DNA from: an uncultured Acidimicrobiales bacterium
GTDB taxonomy: Bacteria > Actinomycetota > Acidimicrobiia > Acidimicrobiales > SHLQ01
Assembly (NCBI GenBank): GCA_964390555.1
Contig: CAYMJU010000207.1
Coordinates: 6,466-70,465 of the forward strand
Direction of reading: 5' to 3'
Length of the DNA stretch: 64,000 nt
In this document: positions 17,035-38,759 of the stretch, one piece after another
How the letters are laid out: each line of letters starts with the position of its first letter
Position numbering within the stretch: position 1 is the first letter of the stretch
Translations under genes and position numbers: made by a program
The notes under the pieces: generated by a model
What the model saw: the letters and a program-made list of their open reading frames with translations, nothing else
Database searches by the model: none
What the model was told of the DNA's origin: nothing

Positions 17035-18369
17035 ATGGCGCTTCCCGACAGCGCTCGATTCGTCGTGATCGGCGCCGGCGTCCACGGTCTCTCGACCGCC
17101 TATCACCTGGCGAAAGAGCTCGAGGCCGCCGGTACCGGCTGGGGTGGCGACGTGGTCGTACTCGACAAGAACGGCATCGGCGCCGGAGCCAGCGGCATCG
17201 CCTGTGGTGTCGTGCGGAACAACTACTACCAACCGGCGATGCGCCGGCTGATGGCCCACTCGGTCGGCGTGTGGGAGCAGCACGCCGAGCGCTTGTCGTA
17301 CCACTCCGTCGGCTACATGCAGATCTCGCCCGAGGTCATGCACGAACAGGTCGCCACCATCTACGAGCAGGAACAGGCGATCGGGTACCCGTCGACCTTC
17401 GTAGAGGGCGAGGCGGCGTGTCGCGACTACATGCGGGCCATGTTCCCCGACTGGCAGGCCCGCAACATCACGACGGTGCTGCACGAGGACCGGGGCGGGT
17501 ACGCCAACAACATGGCATCGATGACCGGCCTGGCCGCCATGGCCCGCGCCGAGGGAGTCCGCATCTTCACCGGTACCCGAGTCACCGGTTTGCGCACCGA
17601 CAACTCAGGCTCGGTGACCCACGTCGAGACCGACCAGGGCACGATCGCCTGCGAGCAGGTCGCAGTGGGCGCGGGACCTTGGGTCCGCGACTTCTGGCGC
17701 ATGCTCGACCTGCCCGACACGGTGACCGTCGTCGGCCGAGACGGCAACCGTTACGAGCGGCCGATGTGGGTGTACTGGTGCCTCGAGGAGGGGACGCTCG
17801 GCGTCGACCCCGACTACTTGTCTCTACCCGACGGCCGCATGCCGCCGGTCATCCACGTCGACACTGACGCTCCGCTCTACGATGACGACGGCGGACTCGT
17901 GACCGACCAGCTCTGGGGCATCTATTTCAAGCCCGACACCAACTTCGGCGGTGTGCAGGGCGGGGCTATGCCCTACATCGTCGACAAGCCACTCGACCAG
18001 GTCGCCGTCGACCCTTACGGCACGTCGAGCCCCGACTTCATCGTGGGCGACGATTTCAAGCGCATGTGGACCTCGGCGCTCGCGCACTGCCTCAAACGGT
18101 TCGAGGGCATGAGCCACCTGTACAAGGACGAGCCGTCCGGTGGCCTCGGCTGCTTCACTCCAGACAGCTTCCCGGTCATCGACTACGCCCGCGACAACGC
18201 GTACGTGATCGCCGATTCGAACCACGGCTACAAGATGATCGGCGTGGGGCAGCTGGTGGCCAGGGCCATGCTCGGCCAGCCGCAGGAGATCTTGCACCCG
18301 TTCCGGTTCGGCCGCTACGCCGACGGCGACCTGCACCCGACCAGCAACTCACCCTTTCCCTGGTCCTAG
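17035..18369 (+). CDS. FAD-dependent oxidoreductase (DAO family, sarcosine-oxidase-beta-like)
   Basis: N-terminal Rossmann motif VVIGAGVHGLSTAYHLA. Overall resemblance to the beta subunit / monomeric amine oxidase family. ATG 17035 is preceded by GGGGGA. Confidence 0.85.
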   Translation: MALPDSARFVVIGAGVHGLSTAYHLAKELEAAGTGWGGDVVVLDKNGIGAGASGIACGVVRNNYYQPAMRRLMAHSVGVWEQHAERLSYHSVGYMQISPEVMHEQVATIYEQEQAIGYPSTFVEGEAACRDYMRAMFPDWQARNITTVLHEDRGGYANNMASMTGLAAMARAEGVRIFTGTRVTGLRTDNSGSVTHVETDQGTIACEQVAVGAGPWVRDFWRMLDLPDTVTVVGRDGNRYERPMWVYWCLEEGTLGVDPDYLSLPDGRMPPVIHVDTDAPLYDDDGGLVTDQLWGIYFKPDTNFGGVQGGAMPYIVDKPLDQVAVDPYGTSSPDFIVGDDFKRMWTSALAHCLKRFEGMSHLYKDEPSGGLGCFTPDSFPVIDYARDNAYVIADSNHGYKMIGVGQLVARAMLGQPQEILHPFRFGRYADGDLHPTSNSPFPWS

Positions 18370-18399
18370 ACCAGCAACGATGTCCGGGGGGACGACGAC

Positions 18400-19806
18400 A
18401 TGACCGACAAGATGTGGGGCGACGCGCCGTTCTGGGGGCTGGGGTACGAGTGGGACCCGAACTGGGTGCTCACCGACCGCCAGCAGGAGCTGCGGTCGCT
18501 GCTCATCGACCTGTGCCAGTCCGAGATGCGGGCCAACGCCAAAGTCAGCGACGACAACCTCGTGTACCCCCGCGCCAACCTCGAGCTGCTCGGCCGGCAC
18601 GGCTTCCTAGGGCTCACCGTGCCCGAGGAGTACGGCGGGCTGGGCGAGAACCACGTGGCCTACTCGATGGTGTGCGAGACCATCGCCCGCTACGGCTGCG
18701 CGTCGACGGCCATGTGCTACGTGATGCACATGGGGGCGGTCAACGCGATCATGCTGCGCCCAACCGATTACTTGATCGACAAGTACATCCGGCCGCTTCG
18801 TGACGGCAGGATCGGCACGCTGTCGTACTCGGACCCCGAGACCGGGTCGCACTTCTGGTACCCGATCTCGTCAGGGGCCGAGCGGGCCGACGGCGGGTTC
18901 AACGTTCGGAAGAAGGCGAGCTGGACCACCTCGGCCGGGTTCGCCGACTGGTACGTCGTGCAGACCACCAGCCCCGACTTCGCGTGGTACGACGACCTGT
19001 CGGTGTTCGTGGTCGACGCCGAGCACGCCAACGCCCAACCCGAGCTGTGGGACGCCATCGGCTTGCGGGGCAACCAGTCGGGCAGCCTCGACGTCAACGG
19101 CTTCGTCCCGGACGACCAGCTCATCGGACAGGTGGGCGACGGCGCCTACTCCAACGACGAGTCGGTCGACCCCTGGTTCCTGATCGGTTCGTCGTCGGTG
19201 TGGAACGGGATCTCCCTCGGGGCGATCGACATCGCCAAGCGCCACACGACGGCCAAGAAGCACGTCGATGTCGGCCTCCGGGTGTGCGACTACCCCACCA
19301 TCCAGGACTACGTGGGCGAGGCGGTCATCGACACCAACGCCAGTCGAATGTTCGTTACGAGCGTGGCCCAGGCGTGCGACGCGGCCACCGACAACAACAC
19401 CCGGCGCCTCGACGGGGCCACGGCGCGGGCCGACTTCTTGCACTGGGCGTGGCAGATCAAGTTCGTCGCGGCCAAGAACGTGGCCCACGTGTGCGACAAG
19501 ATGCTCCACGCCTGCGGCGGCTCGGGCTTCAAGCGCAACATGGAGCTCGAGCGCTACCTGCGCGACGGCAAGGCCGGTTGGGTCATGGGCCCGACCAACG
19601 AGGTGCTCCGCCAGTTCGTCGGCAAGGCGGTGCTGCTCGGCTTCGACAGCCTCGACTACTGGAACCAGACCGTGAACCATCGGGCGATCGACAACGAGGT
19701 GAAGAAGCTCGACCCCGAGGCCAAGCGGGCGCTGGCCGAACGCTTGTTGTCCGAGGCGACGGCCGACGAGACCGCCGGCAAGAAGGGCACGGTCAAGGTC
19801 GGCTGA
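18400..19806 (+). CDS. acyl-CoA dehydrogenase-fold flavoprotein, probably not a classical ACAD
   Basis: ACAD-like N, middle and C domains (GFLGLTVPEEYGGLG, SDPETGSH, CGGSGF...RYLRDGKAG). The MCAD-type catalytic Glu position (YEGT) reads MGPT. About 50 aa of extra C-terminal tail. Confidence 0.75.
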   Translation: MTDKMWGDAPFWGLGYEWDPNWVLTDRQQELRSLLIDLCQSEMRANAKVSDDNLVYPRANLELLGRHGFLGLTVPEEYGGLGENHVAYSMVCETIARYGCASTAMCYVMHMGAVNAIMLRPTDYLIDKYIRPLRDGRIGTLSYSDPETGSHFWYPISSGAERADGGFNVRKKASWTTSAGFADWYVVQTTSPDFAWYDDLSVFVVDAEHANAQPELWDAIGLRGNQSGSLDVNGFVPDDQLIGQVGDGAYSNDESVDPWFLIGSSSVWNGISLGAIDIAKRHTTAKKHVDVGLRVCDYPTIQDYVGEAVIDTNASRMFVTSVAQACDAATDNNTRRLDGATARADFLHWAWQIKFVAAKNVAHVCDKMLHACGGSGFKRNMELERYLRDGKAGWVMGPTNEVLRQFVGKAVLLGFDSLDYWNQTVNHRAIDNEVKKLDPEAKRALAERLLSEATADETAGKKGTVKVG

Positions 19807-22007
19807 TGCCGGTCGAGCGGGTGCTCTTTCCGGGGCTGGTTCCCCGGGTGCCGGGGCTCGAGCGATATCGGGTCGAGCCCGGCGAGGCCCGCCGACTCGA
19901 TCTGCGGCCGGGCGACGAGCTGCGGCTCCGCGACCCCGAAGGACTCACCGCGGCCACCATCACCGTGACCGATGGTCGCCTCGATGGCGAAGGCGGCCGG
20001 ATCGACGTGTTCGGTGCCGGCTCGCCGGCCGGGGCATCGGCGACGTTCGTCTCGTCCGACGGCGCCGCGGTCCTCATCGAGAGCGCGGCGTTCGTCATGG
20101 ACGTCGGTGCGTCGCATCCACCGTCTGCGTTGCGGGTCGAGCTGCAGCGGGCGACTGTCGATCCCGAGTCCGAGCCCCTTCTCCCCGAACCGCTCGCCCT
20201 GCCGCTCGTGCTCGACCGGCGCATCGACCGGGCCACCGCAGCCTCCTACGAGGTGGCCGAGGGGCAGTGGATCCAGATCCTCGACGTCGAGGGCCGGCAG
20301 TGCTCGGACCTGTTGGCGTTCAACGCCCGCCAGCTCCAAGCCGGGCGCGAGCGCGGCATCGACCCCACAACCACCCGCACGCTGCTGGGCGCGCTGTACC
20401 CGGGGCCGGGCCTCTACTCCAAGTACTTCGACCAGGACATGCAGCCGCTCCTCGAAGTCGTGCGCGACACCGTCGGTCGCCACGACACGTTCGGGCTGGC
20501 GTGCACCGCCAAGTACTACGACGACATGGGCTACTTCGGCCACGCCAACTGCAGCGACAACTTCAACGCCGCGCTCGACCGGTTCGGGCTCGAGCCGCGG
20601 CGGGGCTGGCCGGCGATCAACCTCTGGTACAACACGATGCTGATGGGCAACTCCATCACCCTCGACGAGCCCGAGTCCCGACCCGGCGACTACGTGCTGA
20701 TGCGGGCCCTCACCGACCTCGTCGTCGGGTCGTCGGCGTGCCCCGACGACATCGACCCCACCAACGCGTGGAACCCGACCGACATCCACGTGCGGGTGTA
20801 CGACGCCCACCAGACGTTTAGCCGGGCGATCGCCCGCCGAGTCACCCCCGAGGCCGACCCCGTGCTCACCAAAGACACCGCCTTCTCGCCCCGCTGGGGT
20901 GAACTGACCCGCCGCACCACCGAGTACCGGGGCTACTGGCTGCCAACGTCGTTCTCCTCGGAGGGTGCCATCGCCGAGTACTGGGCGTGCCGTGAGCACG
21001 CCGCGGTGATGGACCTGTCGCCGCTGCGCAAGTTCGAGGTCACCGGCCCCGACGCCGAGGCGCTCATGCAATACGCGGTCACCCGCGACATCAAGAAGCT
21101 GGCCGTGGGGCAGGTGGTCTACGCGGCGATGTGCCACCACACGGGCGGCATGATCGATGACGGCACGGTGTTCCGGCTCGGCCCGGATCTGTTCCGCTGG
21201 ATCGGGGGCGAAGAGTACGGCGGCGTGTGGTTGCGAGAGCTCGCCGAGCAGCAGGGCTATCGGGCGTGGGTGAAACAGTCGACCGACCAGCTCCACAACA
21301 TCGCGGTCCAGGGTCCGGCGAGCCGTGACATCGTCGGTTCGATCATCTGGACCCCACCGGCCCAACCGTCGATCGCCGAGCTCGGCTGGTTCAGGTTCGC
21401 TGTCGGCCGCCTCGGTGGCTTCAACGGTCCGGCGCTGATGGTGTCGCGCACGGGCTACTCGGGCGAGCTCGGCTACGAGCTGTTCTGCCACCCCAAGGAC
21501 GCGGTTGCCGTGTGGGACGCCGTGTGGGAATCCGGGCTGCCCCACGGCCTCAGCCCGCTCGGACTCGACGCGCTCGACGTGTTGCGCATCGAGGCCGGGC
21601 TGGTGTTCGCCGGCTACGAGTTCGACGACACCGTCGACCCCTATGCCGCCGGCATCGGGTTCACGGTCGCGCTGTCGTCACCCGACGACTTCGTGGGCAA
21701 GGCCGCGCTGGCCCGCAAGAAGACCAACCCCGATCAGGTGCTCGTGGGGCTCGAACTGTCCGGCAACGAGACCGGGTCGAACGGCGACTGCGTGCACGTC
21801 GGCAAACCCCAGGTCGGCGTGGTCACCAGCGGGTGCCGGTCACCGTGGCTCAGCAAGAACGTCGCCCTCGCCCGGGTGGCCCCCGAGTACGCCGCCATCG
21901 GCACCGAGGTGCAGGTCGGCAAGATCGACGGCCACCAGAAACGCATCCCCGCAAGGGTCGTCCGTTACCCCTTCTACGACCCCGACAAAGTCAAGCCCCG
22001 CAGCTGA
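19806..22007 (+). CDS. tdm: DUF1989 + GcvT (tetrahydrofolate-binding aminomethyltransferase) fusion, trimethylamine-N-oxide demethylase-like
   Basis: 733 aa. The N-terminal half has a DUF1989-type Cys/His-rich core (HDTFGLACTAKYYDDMGYFGHANCSDNFN). The C-terminal half is GcvT-like (VMDLSPLRKFEVTGPDA, SRTGYSGELGYELF, LRIEAGL). This two-domain architecture is the one described for Tdm. TGATG 1-nt overlap with the upstream gene. Confidence 0.75.
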   Translation: MPVERVLFPGLVPRVPGLERYRVEPGEARRLDLRPGDELRLRDPEGLTAATITVTDGRLDGEGGRIDVFGAGSPAGASATFVSSDGAAVLIESAAFVMDVGASHPPSALRVELQRATVDPESEPLLPEPLALPLVLDRRIDRATAASYEVAEGQWIQILDVEGRQCSDLLAFNARQLQAGRERGIDPTTTRTLLGALYPGPGLYSKYFDQDMQPLLEVVRDTVGRHDTFGLACTAKYYDDMGYFGHANCSDNFNAALDRFGLEPRRGWPAINLWYNTMLMGNSITLDEPESRPGDYVLMRALTDLVVGSSACPDDIDPTNAWNPTDIHVRVYDAHQTFSRAIARRVTPEADPVLTKDTAFSPRWGELTRRTTEYRGYWLPTSFSSEGAIAEYWACREHAAVMDLSPLRKFEVTGPDAEALMQYAVTRDIKKLAVGQVVYAAMCHHTGGMIDDGTVFRLGPDLFRWIGGEEYGGVWLRELAEQQGYRAWVKQSTDQLHNIAVQGPASRDIVGSIIWTPPAQPSIAELGWFRFAVGRLGGFNGPALMVSRTGYSGELGYELFCHPKDAVAVWDAVWESGLPHGLSPLGLDALDVLRIEAGLVFAGYEFDDTVDPYAAGIGFTVALSSPDDFVGKAALARKKTNPDQVLVGLELSGNETGSNGDCVHVGKPQVGVVTSGCRSPWLSKNVALARVAPEYAAIGTEVQVGKIDGHQKRIPARVVRYPFYDPDKVKPRS

Positions 22008-22155: not shown

Positions 22156-23088
22156 CTAGTCCGGGCGGTTTTGGACGTGTTGGAAGCCGAAGCGGCCTTT
22201 GATGCACAGGTTGCCGTGGGTGACCGAGTGGTCCGAGGGGCTGGTGACCTTGACGATCTGGTTGTCCTGCACGTGGAGCTCGAGGTTGCAACCGACCCCG
22301 CAGTAGGGGCAGACCGTGGTGGTCTGGGTCTGGGCGGATTCGTCCCACGTGCCCTCGGCGCGCATGGTGTGCTCGCTCGTGAACATCAGCGCCCCGGTCG
22401 GGCACACGGCGATGCAGTTGCCGCAGTACACGCACGCCGAGTCGGTCAGGTCGACGGCGAACTCGGTCGACACCCGGGCGTCGAACCCCCGGCCGGCCAC
22501 GCCGATGGCGAACGTGTTCTGCCACTGGTCACCGCACGCATCTACGCACTTGTAACACAGGATGCACTTGGCGTAGTCACGCACGTACAGCTCGTTGTCG
22601 TCCTTCACCGGCTGGTGCACGTTGTCGGCCGCGGTGCCGTCGGACGGGTGATGAGGGTGGCTCGGGAACCGGTCGTCACGGTCGGCCGAGCCGGGCGCGG
22701 CCACGCCATAGCGGGTGGGGTCGGCGCCGTATTCGGAGTACCAGTCGTCGATCCGGGGGGTGGTCGACAGGTCGACCGACGAGCCGAGGAACTCGAGCAC
22801 CATCTTGCGGCTGTGTTGGGCCCGATCGGAGTCGGTGCGCACCACCATGCCGGGCTCGACTTTGCGCGAGCACGATGGCACGAGCGTCCGCGACCCCTCG
22901 ACCTCGACCATGCACACCCGGCACGCGTTCTTGGGGGTGAGCGTCTCGCCGTAGCACAAGGTGGGGATGTCGCACCCCTGGCCACGGCACGCCGACAACA
23001 CCGTGGTCCCCTCGGGCACCTTCACCACCTCGCCATCGACGGTTAGCTCGACGAGCCGGACGGGCGCAGCCACACGAACGCTGTTCAC
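22156..23088 (-). CDS. formate dehydrogenase alpha-subunit N-terminal Fe-S module (2Fe-2S, two 4Fe-4S ferredoxin motifs, Mo-pterin-type Fe4S4 domain) as a separate protein
   Basis: Cys motifs C-x-C in the N-terminal 2Fe-2S region, CILCYKCVDAC, CVYCGNCIAVCP and CPYCGVGCNL...GNLCIKGRFG. The protein ends 9 residues after the GRFG motif, where full-length FdsA/FdhF-type proteins continue into the molybdopterin domain. Confidence 0.8.
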   Translation of the reverse strand: MNSVRVAAPVRLVELTVDGEVVKVPEGTTVLSACRGQGCDIPTLCYGETLTPKNACRVCMVEVEGSRTLVPSCSRKVEPGMVVRTDSDRAQHSRKMVLEFLGSSVDLSTTPRIDDWYSEYGADPTRYGVAAPGSADRDDRFPSHPHHPSDGTAADNVHQPVKDDNELYVRDYAKCILCYKCVDACGDQWQNTFAIGVAGRGFDARVSTEFAVDLTDSACVYCGNCIAVCPTGALMFTSEHTMRAEGTWDESAQTQTTTVCPYCGVGCNLELHVQDNQIVKVTSPSDHSVTHGNLCIKGRFGFQHVQNRPD

Positions 23089-23137
23089 GCTGATCTCCTG
23101 TTCGCCTTCTCGCTCGCTACCGCTCGCGGCGTGCGGC

Positions 23138-24922
23138 TCACGAGAAAGCTCCGAGCTTGAGGATCGCGGATTCGATGGCGCTGTGGGCGGTCTGGCCGAG
23201 GCCGCAGATCGAGGCGTCGCGCATCACCTGGCCGATCTCGGCGAGCAGCGCCAGATCGCCCGAGCCGATGCCCGACGCCAACCGGGTGAGCGCTTCCTCC
23301 TGGCGGACGGTGCCCACGCGGCACGGCACGCACTGGCCGCAGCTCTCGTCGCGGAAGAACGCGGCGATGCGACGGAGGAACGGCACCAGTTCGACGGTGT
23401 CGTCGAGCACCATCACCACACCGGAGCCGAGCGTCGCGCCGATGGCGCGGGTGCCCTCGAAGGTGAGCGGCACGTCGATCTCGCTCGGTCCGACGAAAGC
23501 GCCCGCCGCGCCACCCAACAGCACCGCCTGGAGCGACCGACCGGCGGGCAGGCCGCCGGCGAGATCGATCAGCTCGCGAAGCGTCGCCCCGAACGGCACC
23601 TCGTAGACGCCGGGCCGGACCACTCCCCCGCTCACACAGAACAGCTTTGGTCCCGCCGACCCCTGCGTGCCGATCGCCGCGAACGCCGGTCCGCCGTCGA
23701 GCACGATCGGCAGCACGTTCACGAGTGTTTCGACGTTGTTGATCACCGTGGGCTCGTGGAAGAGCCCGGCCTCGACCGGGAACGGGGGCTTGTTGCGCGG
23801 CTCGCCGCGGTAGCCCTCGATCGAGTTGAAGATCGCCGTCTCCTCACCGCAGATGTACGCCCCCGCGCCCCGGAAGATCTCGAGGTCGAAGGCGAAGCCC
23901 ACGCCGGCCACGTCGGGGCCGAGGAAGCCTCGGGCCCGAGCCGACTCGATGGCGGCCTGGAGCGTGGCGGTCGCCCGCGGGTACTCGCCACGCAGGTAGA
24001 TCCAGCCGTGCTCGGCGCCGGTGGCGTAGCCGGCGATGGTCATGGCTTCGATGAGCGAGAACGGGTCGCCCTCGATGATCACCCGGTCCTTGAAGGTGCC
24101 GGGCTCGGACTCATCCGCGTTGCAGATGAGGTGATGGGGCCGCTTGGGCTGGCGGGCCGCGGCGTCCCACTTGCGACCGGCGGGGAAGGCGGCGCCGCCG
24201 CGGCCGAGCAGGTTCGAATCGAGCAGTTCGCGGATCACGCCCGCGGGGCCCAACTCCGCGGCCCGGCGCAACGCCGCGTAGCCGCCACGGGCCCGGTAGT
24301 CATCGAGGCTGGTGGGGTCGACGACACCGACGCGCCGCAACAGCGTGAGAGACGCAGATCCGGCCTGGGGTGTTGCCGCGGCGACCGGCGCCTCGGGCTC
24401 GGGCCAACCGCCGTCGACCGCAGACCGGATCGACACCGGCGTCGCCGGGGCCAGCACTGCCTGGCGGGGCGGGTCGGCGGCTTCGACCAGCAGTGCCGCC
24501 GGGGCCCGTTCGCACAAACCGAGGCACGGCGACTCGTGGGCGCCGTCGGGAACCGTGGCGCCGGCCATCATGCACACCAGGTCGACGCACACGTGCACCT
24601 GTCGCGCCGGCCGCTTGCGCAATGAGAACAGCGCGTAGAAGCTGGCGACGGCGTAGACCTCGGCCGGGGCGACATCGAGGCGTTGGGCCACGTAGTTGAG
24701 CGCTCCCGGCGAGATCCATCCGACCCGGTCGTTGACTGCGTGAAGCGCCGGCAGCAGCCGATGCCGCTGTCGCTTCAGCTCGCCCCCACCCCGCGCCGCA
24801 TGGTGGTCGCTGGCGTCGCGGAGCCCACCGCGCCATCCCTCGGGCGCGGGTCCGAGGAGCGCGTCGACGGCGTCGCGCTCGGCGAGCGAAGCCACATCCG
24901 GCCCGAATTTCAGATCAGGCAC
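23138..24922 (-). CDS. fused NuoE-like/NuoF-like diaphorase subunit (FdsG-FdsB type; NAD, FMN and Fe-S binding)
   Basis: The N-terminal part has the thioredoxin-like 2Fe-2S pattern (VCVDLVC...CLGLCE). The C-terminal part has NuoF motifs (GRGGAAFPAGRKW, ICNADESEPGTFKDR, ESCGQCVPCR). 8-nt overlap with the upstream gene. Confidence 0.85.
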   Translation of the reverse strand: MPDLKFGPDVASLAERDAVDALLGPAPEGWRGGLRDASDHHAARGGGELKRQRHRLLPALHAVNDRVGWISPGALNYVAQRLDVAPAEVYAVASFYALFSLRKRPARQVHVCVDLVCMMAGATVPDGAHESPCLGLCERAPAALLVEAADPPRQAVLAPATPVSIRSAVDGGWPEPEAPVAAATPQAGSASLTLLRRVGVVDPTSLDDYRARGGYAALRRAAELGPAGVIRELLDSNLLGRGGAAFPAGRKWDAAARQPKRPHHLICNADESEPGTFKDRVIIEGDPFSLIEAMTIAGYATGAEHGWIYLRGEYPRATATLQAAIESARARGFLGPDVAGVGFAFDLEIFRGAGAYICGEETAIFNSIEGYRGEPRNKPPFPVEAGLFHEPTVINNVETLVNVLPIVLDGGPAFAAIGTQGSAGPKLFCVSGGVVRPGVYEVPFGATLRELIDLAGGLPAGRSLQAVLLGGAAGAFVGPSEIDVPLTFEGTRAIGATLGSGVVMVLDDTVELVPFLRRIAAFFRDESCGQCVPCRVGTVRQEEALTRLASGIGSGDLALLAEIGQVMRDASICGLGQTAHSAIESAILKLGAFS

Positions 24923-26908
24923 GGCTTCCCTCTCGTTCTGGCCGCGAATCGTGCGCGCCCGCGTCGAGGCTCGCCGCCAGAACGCGGGTGTCGACCACGT
25001 GGTCGAGGAGCTTGTCGATGCGGACGGCGGAGGCTTTGAACTCGGCGGTGCCGGACTTGGGGTCGGTGGCTTCGATGGTGAGGGTGTTGGTGTCGACCTG
25101 GTCGGGGAAGTGGAACGTCATGAACACCAGCCCCGGTCGAAGCGACGGATCGACACGGACGGGGGCCTCGATGGCCCCGCGGCGCGACGTCACGACGACG
25201 ACTTCTCCGTCGATGATCTGCAGACGATCAGCGTCCTCGGGCGAGACGTCGATCGTCTCGCCGAACCGCAACGGACTCTTGTAGCCGCTGGACTGCACGC
25301 CCGTGTTGTAGGAATCCAACCGGCGCCCGGTGGTGAGCCGCAGCGGGAAGTCGGCGCTGAGCTCGTCGACGGGCGGGTCGTCGATCACCACACTGAACGG
25401 GGCGCGCCGCCCGCGCACGTCGGGGTCATCGCTCCACAGCCGGTGGTGCAGGTAGCTCGGTTCGAGCGAGTCCTCCGACGGGCACGGCCACTGGATGCCC
25501 CCTAGCGCCTCGAGCCGGTCGTAGCTCATGCCGGTGTGCATCGGCGACAAGGTGCGCAACTCGTTCCAGATCTCCTCGGCCGACTCGTACCCGAAGTCGT
25601 GCCCGAGCCGGGCGCACAGGTCGAGGAGGATCTCGTGGTCGGCCCGCGCCTCGCCGGGCGGATCGAGCGCCTTGCGAACGCGCTGCACCCGGCGCTCGGA
25701 GTTGGTGACCGTGCCGTCGGTCTCGCACCAGCCGGCGGCCGATGGCAGCACCACGTCGGCGAGCTGCGCGGTCTTGGTAAGGAACATGTCCTGCACGACC
25801 AGATGGTCGAGCCCTTCGAGCAGATGGATGGCGTGTTGGCTGTCGGCCTCGGATTGGGCCGGGTTCTCGCCGATCACGTAGAGCGCCCGGAGGTCACCGC
25901 GGCCCATGGCCTCGAACATGGCGGTGAGGTGCCAGCCGTATCGGTCCTGGATCGTGCACCCCCAAGCGGCGTCGAACTTGGCGCGCACCGCGGGGTCGAG
26001 GATGTCCTGGAACCCGGGCATCCGGTTGGGGATGGCGCCCATGTCGCCACCGCCCTGCACGTTGTTCTGACCCCGCAGGGGGTTGAGCCCCGAGCCGTAG
26101 CGGCCGACGTGGCCGCACAGCAGGGCCAGGTTGATGAGCGCCAGCACGTTGTCGACGGCGTTGTGGTGCTCGGTGATGCCGAGGGTCCAGCAGATCTGGG
26201 CCCGGTCGGCGCGACCCCAGGCGTGGGCCAGCTCGCGGATCGATTCGGCGGGGATCCCCGTCACCTCGCTGCCGCGGGCCAGCGTCCACTCCTCGACCGA
26301 CGCCGCGTACTCGGCGAAGTCGCTGGTGGCCCGCTCGACGAACGCAGTGTTGACGAGCCCGGCATGGATGATCTCGCGGGCGATCGTGTTCGACAGCGCG
26401 ATGTCGGTGCCCACGTGGTTGCCGAGCCACAGGTCGGCGAACTCGGCGGTGCTGGTGCGGCGGGGATCGACCACGAACAGCTTGGCGCCGTTGCGCACAC
26501 CGGCCAGCACGTGGTGAAAGAAGATGGGGTGGGCCTCACGGGCGTTTGAACCCCACAGGACGATCACGTCGGTGTCCTCGACCTCGGCGTAGGACGAGGT
26601 GCCACCACCCGCTCCGAAGACGGTGGCCAGACCGACCACCGAAGGTGCGTGTCACGTTCGATTGCACGAGTCGATGTTGTTCGACCCGATGGCGACCCGC
26701 ATGAACTTCTGCGCCACGAAGTTCATCTCGTTGGTGCTCTTCGAGCACGAGAACACGCCCACGCCGTTCGGCCCGAGCGAGTCACGGGTGCGGGAAAAAC
26801 CGGCGGCCGCGCGGTCGAGCGCCTCGTCCCACGTGGCTGCGCGCAGTTCGCCGTCGACCCGCACGAGGGGGCGGGTGAGCCGCGTGTAGGGCTGATGGGC
26901 GAATCGTG
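24915..26908 (-). CDS. formate dehydrogenase catalytic molybdopterin domain protein, selenocysteine-containing (in-frame TGA at 26654-26652)
   Basis: Two adjacent same-frame ORFs are separated only by TGA: ...IGSNNIDSCNRT-TGA-HAPSVVGLATVFGAGGGTSSY. This is the conserved Cys/Sec active-site context of FdhF/FdsA enzymes. Start ATG 26908 follows GGAGG with 7-nt spacing. The N-terminus (PYTRLTRPLVRVDGELRAATWDEALD) is what normally follows the Fe4S4 domain. Confidence 0.75.
26621..26641 (-). promoter_or_regulatory. SECIS-like hairpin starting 11 nt downstream of the in-frame UGA
   Basis: RNA CGGUGGUC-GGUCU-GGCCACCG forms an 8-bp stem (one G.U pair) with a 5-nt GGUCU loop. The spacing and the GGUC-containing loop resemble the E. 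coli fdhF SECIS as I recall it. Confidence 0.55.
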
Positions 26909-26920
26909 ATCTGGGCATGA

Positions 26921-27415
26921 TCATGCCTCCAATGCGTCGAGGGATCGCAGCTTGCCTTTGAAGAAGATCGACGGCTCGGCGCCGTTGTCGGCGTGGTCGA
27001 GCGCGACCACGCGACCGAGCACGAACAGGTGGTCGCCCATCTCGGTCACCGACTCGATCGCGCAGTCGATCCACGCCACCGCGCCACCGAGGATCGGTGA
27101 ACCGCTCCCGGCCGGCTCCCACGCTACGTCGGCGAACTTGTCGCCGTTGCCCGACTTGGCGAAGCGCCAGCACAGCTCGTCCTGCTCGCTGGACAGCACG
27201 TTGACGCAAAACGAACCCGACTCGGCCATCGCCTGCCACGACACCGAGCCCGACATCGGCAGGAAACCGACGAGGGGCGGGTCGAGCGAAACCGAAGTAA
27301 ACGAGCCGATCGTCGCGCCGACCGGGCCGGCGGGGCCGATTCCCGTCACGATCGTGACCCCCGTGGGGTAGTGCCCGAGCACCTGGCGGAAACGGGCAGG
27401 ATCGATGCTGCTCAC
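26921..27415 (-). CDS. flavin reductase (HpaC/NADH:FMN oxidoreductase-like domain)
   Basis: FRQVLGHYPTGVTIVTG...GSFTSVSLDPPLV is the typical flavin_reduct domain N-terminus. GTG 27415 follows GAGAGGA. Confidence 0.85.
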   Translation of the reverse strand: MSSIDPARFRQVLGHYPTGVTIVTGIGPAGPVGATIGSFTSVSLDPPLVGFLPMSGSVSWQAMAESGSFCVNVLSSEQDELCWRFAKSGNGDKFADVAWEPAGSGSPILGGAVAWIDCAIESVTEMGDHLFVLGRVVALDHADNGAEPSIFFKGKLRSLDALEA

Positions 27416-27432
27416 GGGCGTCCTCTCGACAG

Positions 27433-28089
27433 TCAGGTGGATGGTGGTGTGCCATAGGCGATCACGGACAAGAAGCGGATGGGTGTTCGGATCAGTCGGG
27501 TCGGGCCGTGCGGCACGTCGCCGTCGAACTGGAGGGCGTCGCCGCGGCGAAGGTTGTAACGAGCCGCGCCGTGGCCGTACTCGAGCACCCCGTCGAGCAT
27601 GTAGATGAACTCGGTCCCCGCGTGCTGGAACAGCGGGAACACCTCGCTCTCCTCGTTCAACGTGACGAGGAGCGGCTCCATGCGCTTGAACGCGCCGCGC
27701 ATGGCGCCGAGCAGCTGGTAGTCGTGCCCGGATCGAGTGCCGTCGCGGACGATGTCGATGCCCTGGCCGGCGCGCACGAAGATGGCGTCGTGCTCCTCCT
27801 CGAGGCCGCGGAACAGCGCAGTGACCGGCACGTTGATGGCCGACGCGACGCGGGCGAGGGTGCTGAGGCTCGGCGACGCCTGGCCGTTCTCGATCTTCGA
27901 GAGCATGCCCTTGCTGATCCCGGCGGCATCCGCGAGCTGCGCGACGGTGAGACCGAGGGATTGGCGGAACTCCCGTACTCGCTGGGCGATCACGTCGTTG
28001 AGGGCGCGTTCGAGCTGATCGGGATCGATGGCCGTGGCGAGCCGTTCGCGGGCGGCCCCCTCGTCGCTCATCGCGGCCACTGTACCCAC
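27433..28089 (-). CDS. XRE-family HTH + cupin transcriptional regulator (PuuR-like architecture)
   Basis: HTH LTVAQLADAAGISKGMLSKIENG, followed by a C-terminal cupin (HAGTEFIYMLDGVLEYGHG...GDALQFDGDVPHG). First gene of the minus-strand regulator/flavin reductase/FDH string. Confidence 0.85.
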   Translation of the reverse strand: MGTVAAMSDEGAARERLATAIDPDQLERALNDVIAQRVREFRQSLGLTVAQLADAAGISKGMLSKIENGQASPSLSTLARVASAINVPVTALFRGLEEEHDAIFVRAGQGIDIVRDGTRSGHDYQLLGAMRGAFKRMEPLLVTLNEESEVFPLFQHAGTEFIYMLDGVLEYGHGAARYNLRRGDALQFDGDVPHGPTRLIRTPIRFLSVIAYGTPPST

Positions 28090-32840: not shown

Positions 32841-34238
32841 TCAGAACAAGGTGAGGTACTTCTCGGTCTCCCAGGCGCTCACCCCGGAGTGCCAGGCGCG
32901 GAACTCTTCGGCCTTCACCGCCGCGAAGTAGTCGCTGTAGTACTCGGTGCCGGTGTGGCCGAACGCCGCGCGCAACACGTCGTCGTCGACCATGGCCTCG
33001 ACGGCGTGCAAGAGCGTCGGCGGCATGGCCTTGATGCCCTTGGCCGCCACCTCGACGGGATACATGGCGTGGAGGTTGTCGAGGTTCGGCTTGCCGGGAT
33101 CGAGTTTGCGATCCACGCCGTCGAGCCCGGCGGCCAGCACCGCGGTGAACGCCAGGTACGGGTTGGCCGACCCGTCGACGGCGCGGACCTCGAGCCGGTT
33201 GCCCTCGGATATGCGCATCATCTGGGTGCGGTTGTTTCCGCCGTAGGCGACATAGGCCGGGGCCCACGTGGCTCCCGAGTTCGGCGCCGCCACACCCATC
33301 CGCTTGTAGCTGTTGACGGTCGGGGCGATGAACGCGCACAGCGCCCGGGCATGGTCGAGCACGCCACCGGCGAACTGATACCCGAGCGGCGTGAGACCGA
33401 GGCCGTACTTGTCCTTGACACTTTTTCCTGGGCCACCTTTTCCTGGACCCCTGCCGGCGTTCTCGAACAGGTTGCGCTTGCCGTCGGCGGACCACAGTGA
33501 CGTGTTCATGTGCAGCCCGTTGCCGGTGAGGTGCTGGAACGGCTTGGGCATGAACGTGGCCGCCATGCCGGCCTCGTGCGCGACGGTGTGCACCATGTAG
33601 CGGAAGAAGATCAACCGGTCGGCGGTGGTGAGCGCATCGGAGAACTTCCAGTTCTGCTCGAACTGGCCGTTGGCGTCCTCGTGGTCGTTGGCGTAGTTCT
33701 CCCAGCCGAGCTGGTTCATGTACTTCGACACCGTCGAGATGTGGTCGTACATCCGACCGAGCGCTTTGGCGTCGTAGCACGGCAGCGGTTGGGTATCGAG
33801 CGGATCGGCCAGTTCGATCCCACCTTCGGCCTTGCGCCGGACCAGGTGGTACTCGGCCTCGACGCCGACCATCAGCTTCATCCCCCGGTCCTGTTCGAGG
33901 GCGTCCAGGGCGTTGCGCATGATGAGCCGCGGCGTGTATGGCCACAACTTGCCGTCGACCTCGATGTCGCTCATGACGACCGCGACGTGGTCTCGCCATG
34001 GGAGCTTGAAGTAGCTGTTGGCGTCGGGCACCGCGATCATGTCGGGCGACGCCGGCGACTGACCCATGGGCCCCGCGGCGAACCCGGCGAACCCGGCGCC
34101 GCTCACGACCACATCCATGGCCGACGACGGCACGAGCTTGGCGCACGGTCGGCCGTGCATGTCGACGAACATGACGAGGAAGAATTCGATGTCGTCGGCC
34201 TGGGCCTTCGCCTCGAGGATCTCGCGGGTGTCGCTCAT
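32841..34238 (-). CDS. glutamine synthetase type-I-like gamma-glutamyl-amine synthetase (PuuA/GlnA3-like)
   Basis: GS motifs (VGVEAEYHL, NDHEDANGQFEQN, FMPKPF, GNGLHMNTSLW, NSYKR). ATG 34238 follows GGGGGAAC. Divergent from the second mgsABC-like operon. Confidence 0.85.
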   Translation of the reverse strand: MSDTREILEAKAQADDIEFFLVMFVDMHGRPCAKLVPSSAMDVVVSGAGFAGFAAGPMGQSPASPDMIAVPDANSYFKLPWRDHVAVVMSDIEVDGKLWPYTPRLIMRNALDALEQDRGMKLMVGVEAEYHLVRRKAEGGIELADPLDTQPLPCYDAKALGRMYDHISTVSKYMNQLGWENYANDHEDANGQFEQNWKFSDALTTADRLIFFRYMVHTVAHEAGMAATFMPKPFQHLTGNGLHMNTSLWSADGKRNLFENAGRGPGKGGPGKSVKDKYGLGLTPLGYQFAGGVLDHARALCAFIAPTVNSYKRMGVAAPNSGATWAPAYVAYGGNNRTQMMRISEGNRLEVRAVDGSANPYLAFTAVLAAGLDGVDRKLDPGKPNLDNLHAMYPVEVAAKGIKAMPPTLLHAVEAMVDDDVLRAAFGHTGTEYYSDYFAAVKAEEFRAWHSGVSAWETEKYLTLF

Positions 34239-34310
34239 GGTGTTCCCCCTGGTTCGAGCCGACGGTCTCGACCCCCGAGCCGTCGACGCGAACTGTAGTT
34301 CAGCGCGGAT

Positions 34311-34333
34311 GGAGTTTCCCAGTGGTGAACTCC
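34311..34333. promoter_or_regulatory. inverted repeat GGAGTT-N11-AACTCC in the divergent GS-like/mgsA-like intergenic region
   Basis: Same geometry as GAGTT-N11-AACTC in the tdm leader (16979-16999). A GGAAAC half-site is at 34346-34351. Confidence 0.4.
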
Positions 34334-34385
34334 CGTCTACCATGAGGAAACACCGCGTCACCGATATCTGTGGTCAGGGGGCACC

Positions 34386-35258
34386 ATGTGCGGCATCGTC
34401 GGATTGCATCTACTCGACCCGGAGCTCGCGCCCCGGCTCGGTGAGCTGACGTTCGCCATGATGGTCCAGATGACCGATCGCGGCCCCGACTCGTCGGGCG
34501 TGGCGATCTACGGTGATCCGGCCGCGGAAGGCTCGATCAAGTACTCGTGCCAGGCGGATCGCCCGGGCGTCGATCTCGCTGCCGCGGCCCGCGAGCTCGG
34601 TCTCGATCACCGCCCGATCGGCCTTGGCGCCGCCGTGCTGACCGGGGCACCCGGACACCGTGAGGCGCTCGAGGGGCGGGGCATCCGGGTGGTGTCGACC
34701 GGTTCGACCGTCGAGGTGTTCAAGGACGTCGGCCTCCCCCGCGCCGTCATGGAGCGTTACGGCATCGCCGGTCGCCAGGGTTACCAGGCGGTGGGACATA
34801 CCCGCCTCGCCACCGAGTCGGCGATCACGACCGACGGGTCGCACCCCTTCTCGACCCACGACGACCTGTGCGTGGTGCACAACGGGAGCTTCTCGAACTA
34901 CTTCAGCGTGAAGCGCGACCTCGAGGCGCTCGGCGAGGTGTTCCTCACCGAGAACGACACCGAGGTCGCGGCTCGCCTGCTGGGTTACGAGATGGGCCAC
35001 GGGCGCGATCTCGGCGACGCCTTGAAGATCCTGCAGAAGCAGATGGACGGCTTCTACACGTTGCTGTGCGCGACCAAGGACCAGTTCGCCGTCGTGCGCG
35101 ACCTGATCTCCTGCAAGCCCGCCGTCGTCGCCGTCGGTCCCCGCTACGTGGCGATGGCGTCGGAGTACCGGGCCCTCGCCGAGCTGCCCGACATCGACGA
35201 CACCGACGTATTCGAACCCGCACCAGGCGAGATCTATGTGTGGGGCCTCGTGAGATGA
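34386..35258 (+). CDS. mgsA: class II glutamine amidotransferase (GlxB / NMG synthase subunit A-like), second copy
   Basis: Starts MCGIVGL. GHTRLATES and VVHNGSFSNY motifs. Confidence 0.85.
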   Translation: MCGIVGLHLLDPELAPRLGELTFAMMVQMTDRGPDSSGVAIYGDPAAEGSIKYSCQADRPGVDLAAAARELGLDHRPIGLGAAVLTGAPGHREALEGRGIRVVSTGSTVEVFKDVGLPRAVMERYGIAGRQGYQAVGHTRLATESAITTDGSHPFSTHDDLCVVHNGSFSNYFSVKRDLEALGEVFLTENDTEVAARLLGYEMGHGRDLGDALKILQKQMDGFYTLLCATKDQFAVVRDLISCKPAVVAVGPRYVAMASEYRALAELPDIDDTDVFEPAPGEIYVWGLVR

Positions 35259-35935: not shown

Positions 35936-35952
35936 GTCCCGGAGAAGCCACC

Positions 35953-37311: not shown

Positions 37312-37339
37312 TGTCGGGTGTGACGAGGTTTCCCACGAT

Positions 37340-37352
37340 GAGACAGAGTTTC
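37340..37352 (+). promoter_or_regulatory. palindrome variant GAGAC-AGA-GTTTC in the mgsC/soxB spacer
   Basis: 12 of 13 identity to the tdm-leader palindrome. A further GTTTCCCAC box at 37328-37336 lies 20 nt upstream of GTTTCCTCAC at 37349-37358. Confidence 0.4.
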
Positions 37353-37444
37353 CTCACAGTGGACCGAGTGAGCTGTGCCCGTGTAAGCTCCGAGCCGCCT
37401 CGCGCCGGTCGCGCACCCCGAGAGTCCAGGAGGCAGTGAGCCAC

Positions 37445-38737: not shown

Positions 38738-38759
38738 GACGCGAGGGAGCGACAGCGAC

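What the first reader, a model, noticed from the sequence alone, without database searches (positions are those of the whole stretch)
22156..26908. Formate dehydrogenase alpha subunit split at the Fe4S4/molybdopterin junction with permuted gene order
Seen in sequence:
- The Fe-S module (2Fe-2S, two ferredoxin-type 4Fe-4S motifs, and the CxxCxxxC...C Mo-pterin Fe4S4 domain ending ...GNLCIKGRFGFQHVQNRPD*) is a separate 310-aa protein. It is encoded last in the operon (22156-23088).
- The molybdopterin/Sec catalytic domain starts with exactly the sequence that normally follows GRFG (PYTRLTRPLVRVDG..TWDEAL). It is encoded first (24915-26908).
- The fused NuoE/NuoF diaphorase gene (23138-24922) lies between them.

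Established knowledge: in characterised NAD-dependent FDHs (FdsGBA of Rhodobacter and Cupriavidus) these two parts form one FdsA polypeptide, encoded after fdsG and fdsB.

Inference: this is a domain fission plus gene-order permutation that still has to assemble one continuous electron-transfer chain. It may also reflect modular reuse of the Fe-S and diaphorase modules.
Basis: partly seen in the sequence, partly recalled or inferred. Interest (0 to 1): 0.65.

Follow-up and report, generated by a model that had tools for sequence, protein, structure and literature searches.

The report
Split three-subunit selenocysteine formate dehydrogenase
This is a real and widely conserved formate dehydrogenase operon in which the iron-sulfur cluster next to the molybdenum or tungsten site sits on a different protein from the catalytic domain; the layout is unusual and seems not to have been studied, but the predicted function is ordinary.

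Summary
On the minus strand, three translationally linked genes encode:
- a catalytic subunit (CAT, 24915-26924) with Mo/W-pterin domains only. It has an in-frame TGA at 26652-26654.
- a NuoE-NuoF fusion (EF, 23138-24922).
- a 310-aa Fe-S protein (FeS, 22156-23088) that ends with the PF04879 "FS0" [4Fe-4S] domain.

The two pieces tile known full-length enzymes exactly. On the TIGR01591 profile, FeS covers positions 1-51 and CAT covers 52-672. On R. capsulatus FdsA, the break falls at residue ~306.

It is not an assembly error or a pseudogene. Independent contigs span all the junctions. The order CAT-EF-FeS recurs in well over 150 species-level genomes. Most are Actinomycetota, but MAGs labelled as several other phyla carry it too. 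None of 136 CAT genes has an FS0 motif upstream.

The TGA encodes selenocysteine. It aligns with Cys in orthologues, and a SECIS hairpin follows it, with an invariant loop and one perfectly covarying base pair.

The cofactor set matches the M. extorquens tungsten enzyme MeFDH1. The best reading is an NAD(P)+-linked FDH of MeFDH1/FdsABG type whose alpha subunit is split. Here it sits in an island of genes for breaking down methylated amines.

I found no paper that describes the split. I rate it a new variant of a known kind, of moderate interest.

The parts
24915..26924 (-). CAT: formate dehydrogenase catalytic subunit. It has the Mo/W-bis-pyranopterin domains only and no FS0 domain. Length is 669 aa from ATG 26924 or 667 aa from the likelier ATG 26918. 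Active-site motifs are CNRT-U-HAPS and NPLRGQNNVQG.
   Evidence: PF00384 at residues 15-438 and PF01568 at 528-631. TIGR01591 profile positions 52-672, 646.8 bits. Best solved-structure matches are T. kivui FdhF, methanogen FdhA, E. coli FdhF and FdsA. Start context.
26652..26654 (-). In-frame TGA, read as selenocysteine (residue 91). It is the ligand to the Mo/W atom.
   Evidence: The codon aligns with Cys in Lentzea and other orthologues. Across related loci it is TGA in 98 and Cys in 42.
26622..26640 (-). SECIS stem-loop. The 8-bp stem predicted for the window begins 11 nt after the UGA, and the apical loop is GGUCU.
   Evidence: Loop region CGGTCTG is kept in 98/98 Sec loci and in 3/42 Cys loci. 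The six upper pairs are paired in 85/85 distinct sequences, and the pair at columns 18-30 switches CG (43) to GC (42) with none unpaired.
23138..24922 (-). EF: fused NuoE-like ([2Fe-2S]) and NuoF-like (FMN, NAD(H) site, [4Fe-4S]) diaphorase subunit, 594 aa. Its start overlaps the CAT stop by 8 nt.
   Evidence: PF01257, PF01512, SLBB and PF10589. TIGR01959 nuoF_fam at residues 196-588. Colinear with MeFDH1 beta, 7E5Z_B, residues 48-587 against 44-556. There is no C-terminal ferredoxin domain.
22156..23088 (-). FeS: 310-aa electron-transfer subunit carrying [2Fe-2S], two ferredoxin-type [4Fe-4S] clusters and, at its C-terminus, the FS0 [4Fe-4S] cluster.
   Evidence: Pfam hits. Alignment to FdsA residues 23-306. 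16 Cys are invariant in 142 orthologues, and no Cys column exists in residues 100-170.
22168..22323 (-). FS0 module (PF04879, residues 256-307: CPYCGVGC...LCIKGRF). In every characterised FDH this is the N-terminus of the catalytic subunit.
   Evidence: PF04879 profile 4-55 of 55. TIGR01591 profile 1-51. C260, C263, C267 and C295 are invariant.
26921..27460 (-). Flavin reductase gene (PF01613). Its stop overlaps the first CAT ATG. This is a lineage-specific neighbour, not a conserved part of the system.
   Evidence: Pfam, NCBIfam HsaB/FerA-like. Of the first 80 related loci, only L033 has it upstream.
27433..28089 (-). XRE-type HTH plus cupin regulator upstream on the same strand. It is a possible local regulator.
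   Evidence: PF01381 and PF07883.

Best explanation
The locus encodes a soluble, three-subunit, NAD(P)+-linked metal-dependent formate dehydrogenase. It is of the MeFDH1/FdsABG kind, but its alpha subunit is made as two polypeptides.

Proposed electron path (inferred):
1. Formate is oxidised at a Sec-ligated Mo or W bis-pyranopterin centre in CAT.
2. Electrons leave across a subunit interface to the FS0 [4Fe-4S] cluster. That cluster is carried on the last ~55 residues of the FeS subunit, which must dock onto CAT in place of the missing N-terminal segment.
3. They pass through the two ferredoxin-type [4Fe-4S] clusters and the [2Fe-2S] cluster of FeS.
4. They reach the [4Fe-4S] cluster and FMN of the NuoE-NuoF fusion, which reduces NAD(P)+. 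The reaction could also run in reverse.

Shown here: domain content, clean complementarity of the pieces, conservation, gene order and Sec decoding signals.

Inferred: complex formation, the electron path, the nucleotide used, and Mo versus W.

The likely role in this organism is the last step of C1 oxidation from methylated amines. The architecture probably arose once, either by operon duplication and trimming of an FdsA-like operon or by moving the FS0 module. It then spread widely.
For: Domain complementarity and a clean break:
- Pfam domains.
- Alignments to FdsA.
- Tiling of the TIGR01591 profile.

Active-site motifs U-H and RGQ are present.

Sec decoding:
- UGA/Cys pairs in orthologues.
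- A SECIS hairpin with an invariant loop and covariation at synonymous sites.

Cofactor set:
- 16 invariant Cys, enough for four clusters.
- This equals MeFDH1 alpha, with clusters A1-A4. MeFDH1 beta equals FdsG plus FdsB (PMC10869683).
- The missing His-ligated cluster is off-pathway in RcFDH (PMC7171172).

EF is colinear with MeFDH1 beta and has NuoF motifs.

The order CAT-EF-FeS is conserved at 60-85% amino-acid identity across many lineages. 0 of 136 CAT genes have an FS0 motif upstream.

The genes are translationally coupled.

The surrounding genes are THF-dependent demethylases and a set resembling the N-methylglutamate pathway.
Against: - No biochemical or expression data exist for any member, as far as I could find.
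- Complex formation could not be modelled.
- No tRNA-Sec or sel genes lie in the 64-kb window, so the Sec machinery is unverified for this genome.
- No fdhD/fdsC-like maturation gene was seen in the operon.
- CAT alone scores just under the TIGR01591 cut-off (646.8 against 666.25).
- In a few genomes the modules are not adjacent.
- CAT is closer in sequence to FdhF-type enzymes than to FdsA, so descent from an FdsA-like fused gene is uncertain.
Confidence: 0.8

Rival explanations
1. Artefact or decay. The split and the permuted order would come from misassembly or from a broken, non-functional fdsA, with the TGA as a plain stop codon.
For: The window comes from a metagenome. Mechanical ORF calling breaks CAT at the TGA.
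Against: - Contigs of run X1, assembled independently, span the FeS/EF junction (22411-23215), the EF/CAT junction (24177-24963) and the TGA plus the upstream junction (26616-27298), each with 0-1 mismatches.
- The same architecture appears in cultured Lentzea, Amycolatopsis, Nonomuraea, Nocardiopsis and Kutzneria genomes and in many MAGs, at 60-85% identity.
- A SECIS hairpin with covariation follows the TGA.
Confidence: 0.02
2. A flavin-based electron-bifurcating FDH of the HylABC-FdhF2/Bfu type. It would couple formate oxidation to simultaneous reduction of NAD+ and ferredoxin.
For: The NuoF part of EF scores highest against B subunits of Bfu-family enzymes (9BOV_B, 8OH5_B, HydB). A separate NuoG-like Fe-S subunit recalls HylA (my own knowledge).
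Against: - EF ends right after the PF10589 cluster domain, so it lacks the C-terminal two-cluster ferredoxin domain of HydB-type subunits.
- FeS lacks the His-ligated cluster.
- Cultured hosts such as Lentzea, Amycolatopsis and Nonomuraea are aerobes (my own knowledge).
- The cofactor set equals that of the non-bifurcating MeFDH1.
Confidence: 0.05
3. The EF-FeS pair is a general diaphorase/wire module. It would serve several pterin enzymes, and FeS would present FS0 to whichever FS0-less catalytic subunit is expressed. CAT would be only one client.
For: - L002 and L003, the closest FeS relatives (81%), have EF-FeS with a WS/DGAT gene in place of CAT upstream.
- L096, L117, L174, L190 and L264 have CAT with no EF downstream.
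- L136 has a second, distant CAT-like gene after FeS.
Against: In the great majority of loci the three genes are adjacent and co-oriented, often with overlapping stop and start codons. No second FS0-less pterin enzyme was identified. Unlinked cases may simply be rearrangements with CAT elsewhere in the genome.
Confidence: 0.1

Closest known systems
MeFDH1 (Fdh1AB), the tungsten NAD+-dependent FDH of Methylobacterium extorquens AM1 (PDB 7E5Z/7VW6; PMC10869683)
   Same: - The cofactor inventory is the same: the pterin centre, FS0, two [4Fe-4S] and one [2Fe-2S] cluster on the alpha side, and FMN, [4Fe-4S] and [2Fe-2S] on a beta subunit that equals NuoE plus NuoF.
- EF is colinear with 7E5Z_B.
- It likewise has no His-ligated cluster.
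- Both occur in a methylotrophy setting.
   Different: - MeFDH1 alpha is one 989-995-aa chain. Here it is two genes, split at the FS0/pterin junction, with the catalytic part encoded first.
- Here the ligand is Sec, not Cys as the literature reports for MeFDH1 (my own knowledge, not checked here).
- Sequence identity is modest: 126 bits for FeS and 404 bits for CAT.
FdsABG(D) of Rhodobacter capsulatus and Cupriavidus necator (PDB 6TGA; PMC7171172)
   Same: It is the best solved-structure match for FeS (E = 6e-48, FdsA residues 23-303/306). The on-pathway cluster chain from FS0 to FMN is the same.
   Different: - FdsA is a single chain encoded after fdsG and fdsB.
- FdsG and FdsB are separate proteins.
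- FdsA has the extra His117/Cys121/124/130 cluster A4 at the dimer interface, which is absent from all 142 FeS orthologues.
- No FdsD was seen here.
HylABC-FdhF2 of Gottschalkia acidurici, and HoxU of NAD-reducing hydrogenases (my own knowledge; HoxU also from NCBIfam)
   Same: A NuoG-N-terminus-like Fe-S protein exists as a polypeptide separate from the catalytic subunit.
   Different: In those systems the catalytic subunit keeps its own proximal cluster. Here the proximal FS0 cluster has itself moved to the Fe-S subunit. The Hyl enzyme is bifurcating and has a HydB-type flavoprotein.
FwdB/FwdD of formylmethanofuran dehydrogenase (my own knowledge; FwdB appears among the hits)
   Same: It is a precedent for a formate-dehydrogenase-like pterin enzyme split into two polypeptides.
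   Different: That split lies between the pterin-binding domains and the C-terminal cap domain. It is not at the FS0 junction, and FwdB keeps FS0.
FdhF-type Sec enzymes (E. coli FDH-H, T. kivui HDCR FdhF) and the Bacillaceae FS0-CAT genes found here
   Same: They are the closest in sequence to CAT: 492 bits to T. kivui FdhF and 45-46% identity to the Bacillaceae genes. The active-site and SECIS DNA pattern is the same.
   Different: They carry FS0 at their own N-terminus, and their loci held no hit to the rest of FeS or to EF.

Membership tests
Mo/W-bis-pyranopterin formate dehydrogenase catalytic subunit (FdhF/FdsA type, TIGR01591) | Sec or Cys metal ligand followed by His, plus the conserved Arg (RGQ motif) | tested here: met
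   The motifs ...CNRT-U-HAPS... and ...NPLRGQNNVQG... align with T. kivui and methanogen FDH active sites.
Mo/W-bis-pyranopterin formate dehydrogenase catalytic subunit (FdhF/FdsA type, TIGR01591) | Molybdopterin oxidoreductase domain and dinucleotide-binding cap domain | tested here: met
   PF00384 (3.8e-70) and PF01568 (7e-27).
Mo/W-bis-pyranopterin formate dehydrogenase catalytic subunit (FdhF/FdsA type, TIGR01591) | Proximal FS0 [4Fe-4S] domain (PF04879) at the N-terminus of the same polypeptide | tested here: not met
   CAT has no PF04879. 0 of 136 orthologous CAT genes have a CxxCxxxC...CxKG motif within 400 nt upstream. The domain is at the C-terminus of FeS.
Mo/W-bis-pyranopterin formate dehydrogenase catalytic subunit (FdhF/FdsA type, TIGR01591) | Score above the curated equivalog cut-off | tested here: not met
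   CAT scores 646.8 bits against a cut-off of 666.25 because profile positions 1-51 are missing. FeS supplies them with 56 bits.
Mo/W-bis-pyranopterin formate dehydrogenase catalytic subunit (FdhF/FdsA type, TIGR01591) | Formate oxidation or CO2 reduction activity; identity of the metal | not testable with these tools
   This needs enzyme assays and metal analysis.
Soluble NAD+-linked FDH with a complex-I-like diaphorase (FdsABG / MeFDH1) | NuoF-like subunit with FMN and NAD(H) site and a [4Fe-4S] cluster, plus a NuoE-like [2Fe-2S] cluster | tested here: met
   PF01512, PF10589 and PF01257. TIGR01959 at 439 bits. Alignments to FdsB and MeFDH1 beta. The Cys motifs CxxxxC...CxxxC and CGQCVPC...C are visible in the sequence.
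Soluble NAD+-linked FDH with a complex-I-like diaphorase (FdsABG / MeFDH1) | NuoG-like N-terminal module with [2Fe-2S] and two [4Fe-4S] clusters linking FS0 to the flavoprotein | tested here: met
   PF13510 and PF22117/PF12838. Alignment to FdsA residues 23-306. 16 invariant Cys.
Soluble NAD+-linked FDH with a complex-I-like diaphorase (FdsABG / MeFDH1) | Fe-S module and catalytic domain on one alpha polypeptide, encoded after the diaphorase genes | tested here: not met
   They are separate genes in the order CAT-EF-FeS, here and in all informative related loci.
Soluble NAD+-linked FDH with a complex-I-like diaphorase (FdsABG / MeFDH1) | His-ligated [4Fe-4S] cluster (A4 of RcFDH, PF10588). This defines the FdsA subtype only. 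| tested here: not met
   FeS has no PF10588 hit, and residues 100-170 hold no Cys in 142 orthologues. It is present in the fused relatives P0216 and P0258. It is also absent from MeFDH1.
Bacterial selenoprotein gene | In-frame UGA at a position held by Cys in orthologues | tested here: met
   98 loci have TGA and 42 have Cys at the same column.
Bacterial selenoprotein gene | SECIS hairpin just downstream of the UGA, with a conserved apical loop | tested here: met
   The stem starts 11 nt after the UGA. The loop is invariant in 98/98 Sec loci and kept in 3/42 Cys loci. The pair at columns 18-30 is CG in 43 and GC in 42 sequences, with 0 unpaired.
Bacterial selenoprotein gene | selA, selB, selC and selD present in the genome | not testable with these tools
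   No tRNA genes lie in the 64-kb window. The rest of the genome is not available.
Bfu-type electron-bifurcating enzymes (HydABC / HylABC-FdhF2) | Flavoprotein B subunit with a C-terminal two-[4Fe-4S] ferredoxin domain | tested here: not met
   EF ends at residue 594, directly after PF10589 (residues 516-587). 9BOV_B extends about 85 residues beyond the aligned region.

The most novel reading that the evidence does not exclude
The proximal FS0 [4Fe-4S] cluster is, in every characterised FDH, part of the first domain of the catalytic subunit. In this large, multi-phylum family it is supplied in trans by the C-terminus of the electron-transfer subunit. The pterin-to-cluster electron step would then cross a subunit interface. 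If so, this is a natural split-domain design. It may have been created by circular permutation of a whole operon (duplication followed by trimming of both ends). It would show that FDH catalytic modules can be plugged onto a separate wire-and-diaphorase chassis, and some genomes may already exchange modules.
Probability: 0.6. Interest if true: 0.6.

Novelty: new variant of a known kind. Interest (0 to 1): 0.45.

Why it matters
- Oxygen-tolerant NAD-linked metal FDHs (RcFDH, CnFDH, MeFDH1) are studied closely for CO2-to-formate conversion. All characterised ones have a single large alpha subunit.
- A widespread natural version separates the catalytic module from the wiring exactly at the first electron-transfer step. 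That gives a template for modular engineering, such as swapping catalytic subunits or expressing smaller pieces.
- It also tests how tightly FS0 must be built into the first domain of the catalytic subunit.
- The family appears common in soil and freshwater Actinomycetota and in other phyla, mostly as a selenoprotein. It may therefore be a major unrecognised route of formate oxidation in aerobic C1 and methylated-amine metabolism.
- There is a practical annotation point. The catalytic gene is broken at the Sec codon by ORF callers, and it falls just under the TIGR01591 cut-off because its first 51 profile positions lie in another gene. The Fe-S subunit is usually named only "2Fe-2S iron-sulfur cluster-binding protein".

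Tried and rejected
1. Complex modelling. The FeS model built from 32 close homologues was too poor to use (mean pLDDT 53.8, pTM 0.45), so no fold search was run.
2. The exhaustive representative search with FeS returned mostly metagenomic fragments. It was useful only for finding fused relatives (P0201, P0216, P0258).
3. Operon context of the fused relatives P0216 and P0201. Their contigs are too short to show whether a diaphorase gene lies upstream, so the duplication-and-trimming model could not be tested.
4. Junction overlap as evidence for duplication. In the window, FeS ends ...CIKGRFGFQHVQNRPD and CAT begins MPRSRFAHQPYTRLTRPLV. Both resemble the fused junction C[IV]KGRFG..FI..PDRL..PLV. 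A K/R-x-x-F/Y vestige is seen in only 23 of 133 CAT N-termini, so this is weak.
5. Origin by sequence similarity is not decisive. CAT is closer to FdhF-type genes (45-46%) than to the NuoG-fused relatives sampled (35-39%). The FS0 module is about equally close to both, at 41-55%.
6. Literature. Five full-text searches for a description of the split found none. A 2026 FDH review and a 2026 paper on FDH diaphorase subunits do not mention it. One genomics paper lists a "three-subunit type" Fdh1ABC in methylotrophic Mycobacterium and Arthrobacter (PMC5023230). I could not check whether it is the same family.
7. Misassembly, pseudogene and bifurcating readings were considered and rejected. See the rival explanations.


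Full report
**What is in the sequence**

The window has about 68% G+C. Its best-matching public run (0.89 of sampled words) is a freshwater sediment metagenome. Between 22156 and 26924, on the minus strand, lie three co-oriented genes.

- CAT runs from 24915 to 26924. Its first ATG overlaps the stop of an upstream flavin-reductase gene as ATGA. A second ATG at 26918 has GGAGG 7 nt upstream and is the likelier start.
- EF runs from 23138 to 24922. Its GTG start overlaps the CAT stop by 8 nt.
- FeS runs from 22156 to 23088. A 49-nt spacer containing GGAG precedes it.

Pfam assigns the following domains.

| Protein | Domains |
|---|---|
| FeS | [2Fe-2S] domain (residues 12-87), ferredoxin dicluster (172-234), complete Molybdop_Fe4S4 domain (256-307; stop codon three residues later) |
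| EF | NuoE-like thioredoxin-type [2Fe-2S] domain fused to NuoF (FMN domain, SLBB, [4Fe-4S] domain) |
| CAT | Only the molybdopterin oxidoreductase domain, starting at residue 15 at profile position 1, and the dinucleotide-binding cap domain |

**The break point is clean**

- Against solved structures, FeS matches R. capsulatus FdsA best (E = 6e-48), over FdsA residues 23-303, or 23-306 in a close homologue.
- CAT aligns to the same chains from residue 306/307 to 931.
- Against NCBIfam TIGR01591, FeS residues 258-308 cover profile positions 1-51. CAT residues 14-636 cover positions 52-672.
- CAT alone scores 646.8 bits, just below the 666.25 cut-off, because those 51 positions are encoded elsewhere.
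- No other FDH-like sequence is present in the window.

**The in-frame TGA is selenocysteine**

- CAT reads ...SCNRT-TGA-HAPSVVGL.... Lentzea orthologues have Cys at this position.
- Across related loci, 98 have TGA and 42 have a Cys codon.
- Eleven nucleotides after the UGA the window folds into an 8-bp hairpin with loop GGUCU.
- The loop region CGGTCTG is identical in 98 of 98 Sec loci but in only 3 of 42 Cys loci. Both groups encode the same Gly-Leu there.
- In 85 distinct Sec sequences, the six upper stem pairs are paired in every sequence.
- One pair switches between C-G (43 sequences) and G-C (42 sequences) through two synonymous third-position changes, and it is never unpaired.
- This is the signature of a bacterial SECIS element. 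The Sec machinery itself could not be checked, because the window holds no tRNA genes.

**It is not an artefact, and it is not rare**

- Contigs from the best-matching run (X1), assembled independently, cross the FeS/EF junction, the EF/CAT junction and the TGA with the upstream junction. Each has 0-1 mismatches.
- A protein search returned thousands of hits. The best 120 are 301-392 aa long (most 301-345) and 68-85% identical to FeS. One, from Lentzea xinjiangensis, is named "NAD-dependent formate dehydrogenase iron-sulfur protein" by its source.
- In that genome the gene order is pterin subunit (641 aa), NuoEF fusion (589 aa), Fe-S protein (307 aa).

| Scan query | Result |
|---|---|
| FeS | All 60 loci that reach far enough upstream show CAT-EF-FeS. 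In some, a ~2-kb insert separates CAT from EF |
| CAT | 69 of 80 loci show the full order. Most others are cut by contig ends or carry inserts |
| Active-site/SECIS DNA pattern | Of 119 loci, 54 show the full order, 55 are cut by the locus end, 3 lack EF downstream, and 7 Bacillaceae loci are ordinary FS0-CAT fusions of FdhF type |

- None of 136 CAT genes has an FS0 Cys motif within 400 nt upstream.
- Hosts include Acidimicrobiia (Ilumatobacteraceae, acIV), Gaiellales, Thermoleophilia/Solirubrobacterales, Lentzea, Amycolatopsis, Nonomuraea, Nocardiopsis, Kutzneria and Streptosporangium.
- The family also appears in MAGs labelled Acidobacteriota, Chloroflexia, Gemmatimonadota, Planctomycetota, Verrucomicrobiota and others. 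MAG labels were not verified.

**Cofactors and mechanism**

- In 142 FeS orthologues, 16 Cys are invariant. Four serve the [2Fe-2S] cluster, eight serve two [4Fe-4S] clusters, and four serve FS0. No Cys column exists between residues 100 and 170.
- The His-ligated cluster is therefore absent. In FdsA that cluster is A4, ligated by His117, Cys121, Cys124 and Cys130 (Pfam PF10588). It is present in more distant fused relatives.
- The R. capsulatus structure paper states that A4 lies outside the pterin-to-FMN pathway, at the dimer interface (PMC7171172).
- The M. extorquens MeFDH1 structure paper describes the same set found here. The alpha side has A1 (FS0), A2 and A3 ([4Fe-4S]) and A4 ([2Fe-2S]). 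The beta subunit carries FMN, one [4Fe-4S] and one [2Fe-2S], and equals FdsG plus FdsB (PMC10869683).
- EF is colinear with MeFDH1 beta over residues 48-587. It lacks the C-terminal ferredoxin domain of bifurcating HydB-type subunits.
- The inferred path is: formate, then the Sec-Mo/W pterin centre in CAT, then FS0 on the FeS C-terminus, then two [4Fe-4S] clusters, then [2Fe-2S], then the [4Fe-4S] cluster in EF, then FMN, then NAD(P)+.
- The unusual step is the first one, which must cross a subunit interface.
- The conserved CIKG lysine sits on FeS here. From my own knowledge of E. coli FDH-H, this lysine lies between FS0 and the pterin.
- Also from my own knowledge of FDH-H, the N-terminal FS0 segment is only one part of the first structural domain. 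Later segments of the chain complete that domain. The FeS tail therefore probably completes a domain of CAT rather than docking as an independent body. This could not be tested.

**Physiological setting**

The operon lies in an island of genes for breaking down methylated amines.
- A DAO-type oxidase, an acyl-CoA-dehydrogenase-like protein and a DUF1989-GcvT fusion converge on it.
- Further along lie genes for a glutamine-synthetase-like protein, a GATase, a glutamate-synthase-like protein, a DAO protein and a sarcosine-oxidase-alpha/GcvT protein. From my own knowledge, this set resembles the N-methylglutamate pathway of methylamine oxidation.
- A second partial set lies at 3769-7057.
- Formate is the expected product of THF-linked C1 oxidation, so a terminal FDH fits.
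- A genomics paper on Gram-positive methylamine users lists a "three-subunit type" Fdh1ABC in Mycobacterium and one Arthrobacter, alongside N-methylglutamate pathway genes. In one strain Fdh1A is listed as two adjacent ORFs, as a Sec codon would produce (PMC5023230). It may be the same family, but I could not verify this.

**Origin**

Two scenarios remain open.
- (a) An FdsA-like operon in the order diaphorase then alpha was duplicated in tandem, and both ends were trimmed. This yields CAT-EF-FeS and the fission in one scheme. It fits the observation that the FeS 3' end and the CAT 5' end are the two halves of one junction.
- (b) The FS0 module moved from an FdhF-like catalytic gene onto a HoxU/HylA-like Fe-S gene.

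The evidence does not decide between them.
- In the window, both pieces keep a copy of the junction peptide (RFGFQ...PD in FeS, RFAHQP in CAT), which favours (a).
- That vestige is not family-wide: it appears in 23 of 133 CAT N-termini.
- CAT is closer to FdhF-type genes than to the NuoG-fused relatives sampled.

**Comparison and verdict**

- The system works like MeFDH1 and FdsABG, and I file it next to them.
- It fails one defining feature of their alpha subunit and of TIGR01591: FS0 and the pterin domains on one chain.
- It is best called a split-alpha, three-subunit variant.
- Annotation pipelines already name the pieces generically.
- I found no paper that describes the split or characterises the enzyme.
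- The function prediction is unsurprising. The architecture, its breadth and its Sec usage in aerobes deserve a note and an experiment.
- Interest is 0.45.

Noticed in passing
window 32841-42441 (both strands) and 3769-7057 (-): A gene set resembling the N-methylglutamate pathway of methylamine oxidation. It comprises a glutamine-synthetase-like gene (32841-34361), a GATase (34386-35258), a Glu_synthase domain gene (35953-37311), a DAO gene (37232-38737), a sarcosine-oxidase-alpha-like gene with GcvT (38867-41845) and a small ORF (41842-42441). A second partial set (GXGXG, GATase, GS-like) lies at 3769-7057.
   Followed up: partly
window 17035-22007 (+): A DAO-type FAD oxidase, an acyl-CoA-dehydrogenase-like protein and a DUF1989-GcvT fusion (734 aa) converge on the 3' end of the FDH operon. 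They look like a THF-dependent demethylase system with an unknown substrate.
   Followed up: partly
window 26921-27460 (-): A flavin reductase gene (PF01613, HsaB/FerA-like) whose TGA stop overlaps the first ATG of CAT. Among the first 80 related loci only L033 has it upstream, and L048 has a distant one downstream. Its link to the FDH is unknown.
   Followed up: partly
L002 and L003 (EF 5187-6977, FeS 6974-7924 in L003): The two closest relatives of the window's FeS protein (81% identity) have EF-FeS but no CAT upstream. A wax-ester synthase (WS/DGAT) gene on the opposite strand sits there instead. Whether CAT lies elsewhere in those genomes is unknown.
   Followed up: partly
L096, L117 (Nonomuraea ferruginea), L174, L190, L264: These loci have a CAT gene of the split type but no EF or FeS in the 1.3-5 kb of downstream sequence available. 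Other Nonomuraea species have the full operon.
   Followed up: no
L030, L031, L034, L035, L040, L041, L045, L047, L049, L051-L053 (for example L031 3083-5051): In freshwater Ilumatobacteraceae/acIV-type loci, about 2 kb is inserted between CAT and EF. It carries a zinc alcohol dehydrogenase gene and a HalD-like gene on the opposite strand, so the operon is interrupted there. L155, L161 and L239 also have inserts of several kb, which were not examined.
   Followed up: partly
L175, L192, L222, L224, L233, L260, L272 (Bacillaceae): Ordinary FS0-CAT fused, Sec-containing FdhF-like genes, 44-46% identical to CAT. They share the same active-site and SECIS DNA pattern, including the GGTCTGG loop. This suggests the SECIS type is older than the split.
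   Followed up: partly
FeS residue C34 (window ~22987-22989): A fifth Cys in the [2Fe-2S] domain is conserved in 99% of 142 orthologues, although four other Cys (C45, C56, C59, C73) fit the usual ligand pattern. Its role is unknown.
   Followed up: no
L136 10371-10835: A second, distant CAT-like segment (34% identity over residues 25-187) lies downstream of FeS in one Actinomycetes MAG.
   Followed up: no
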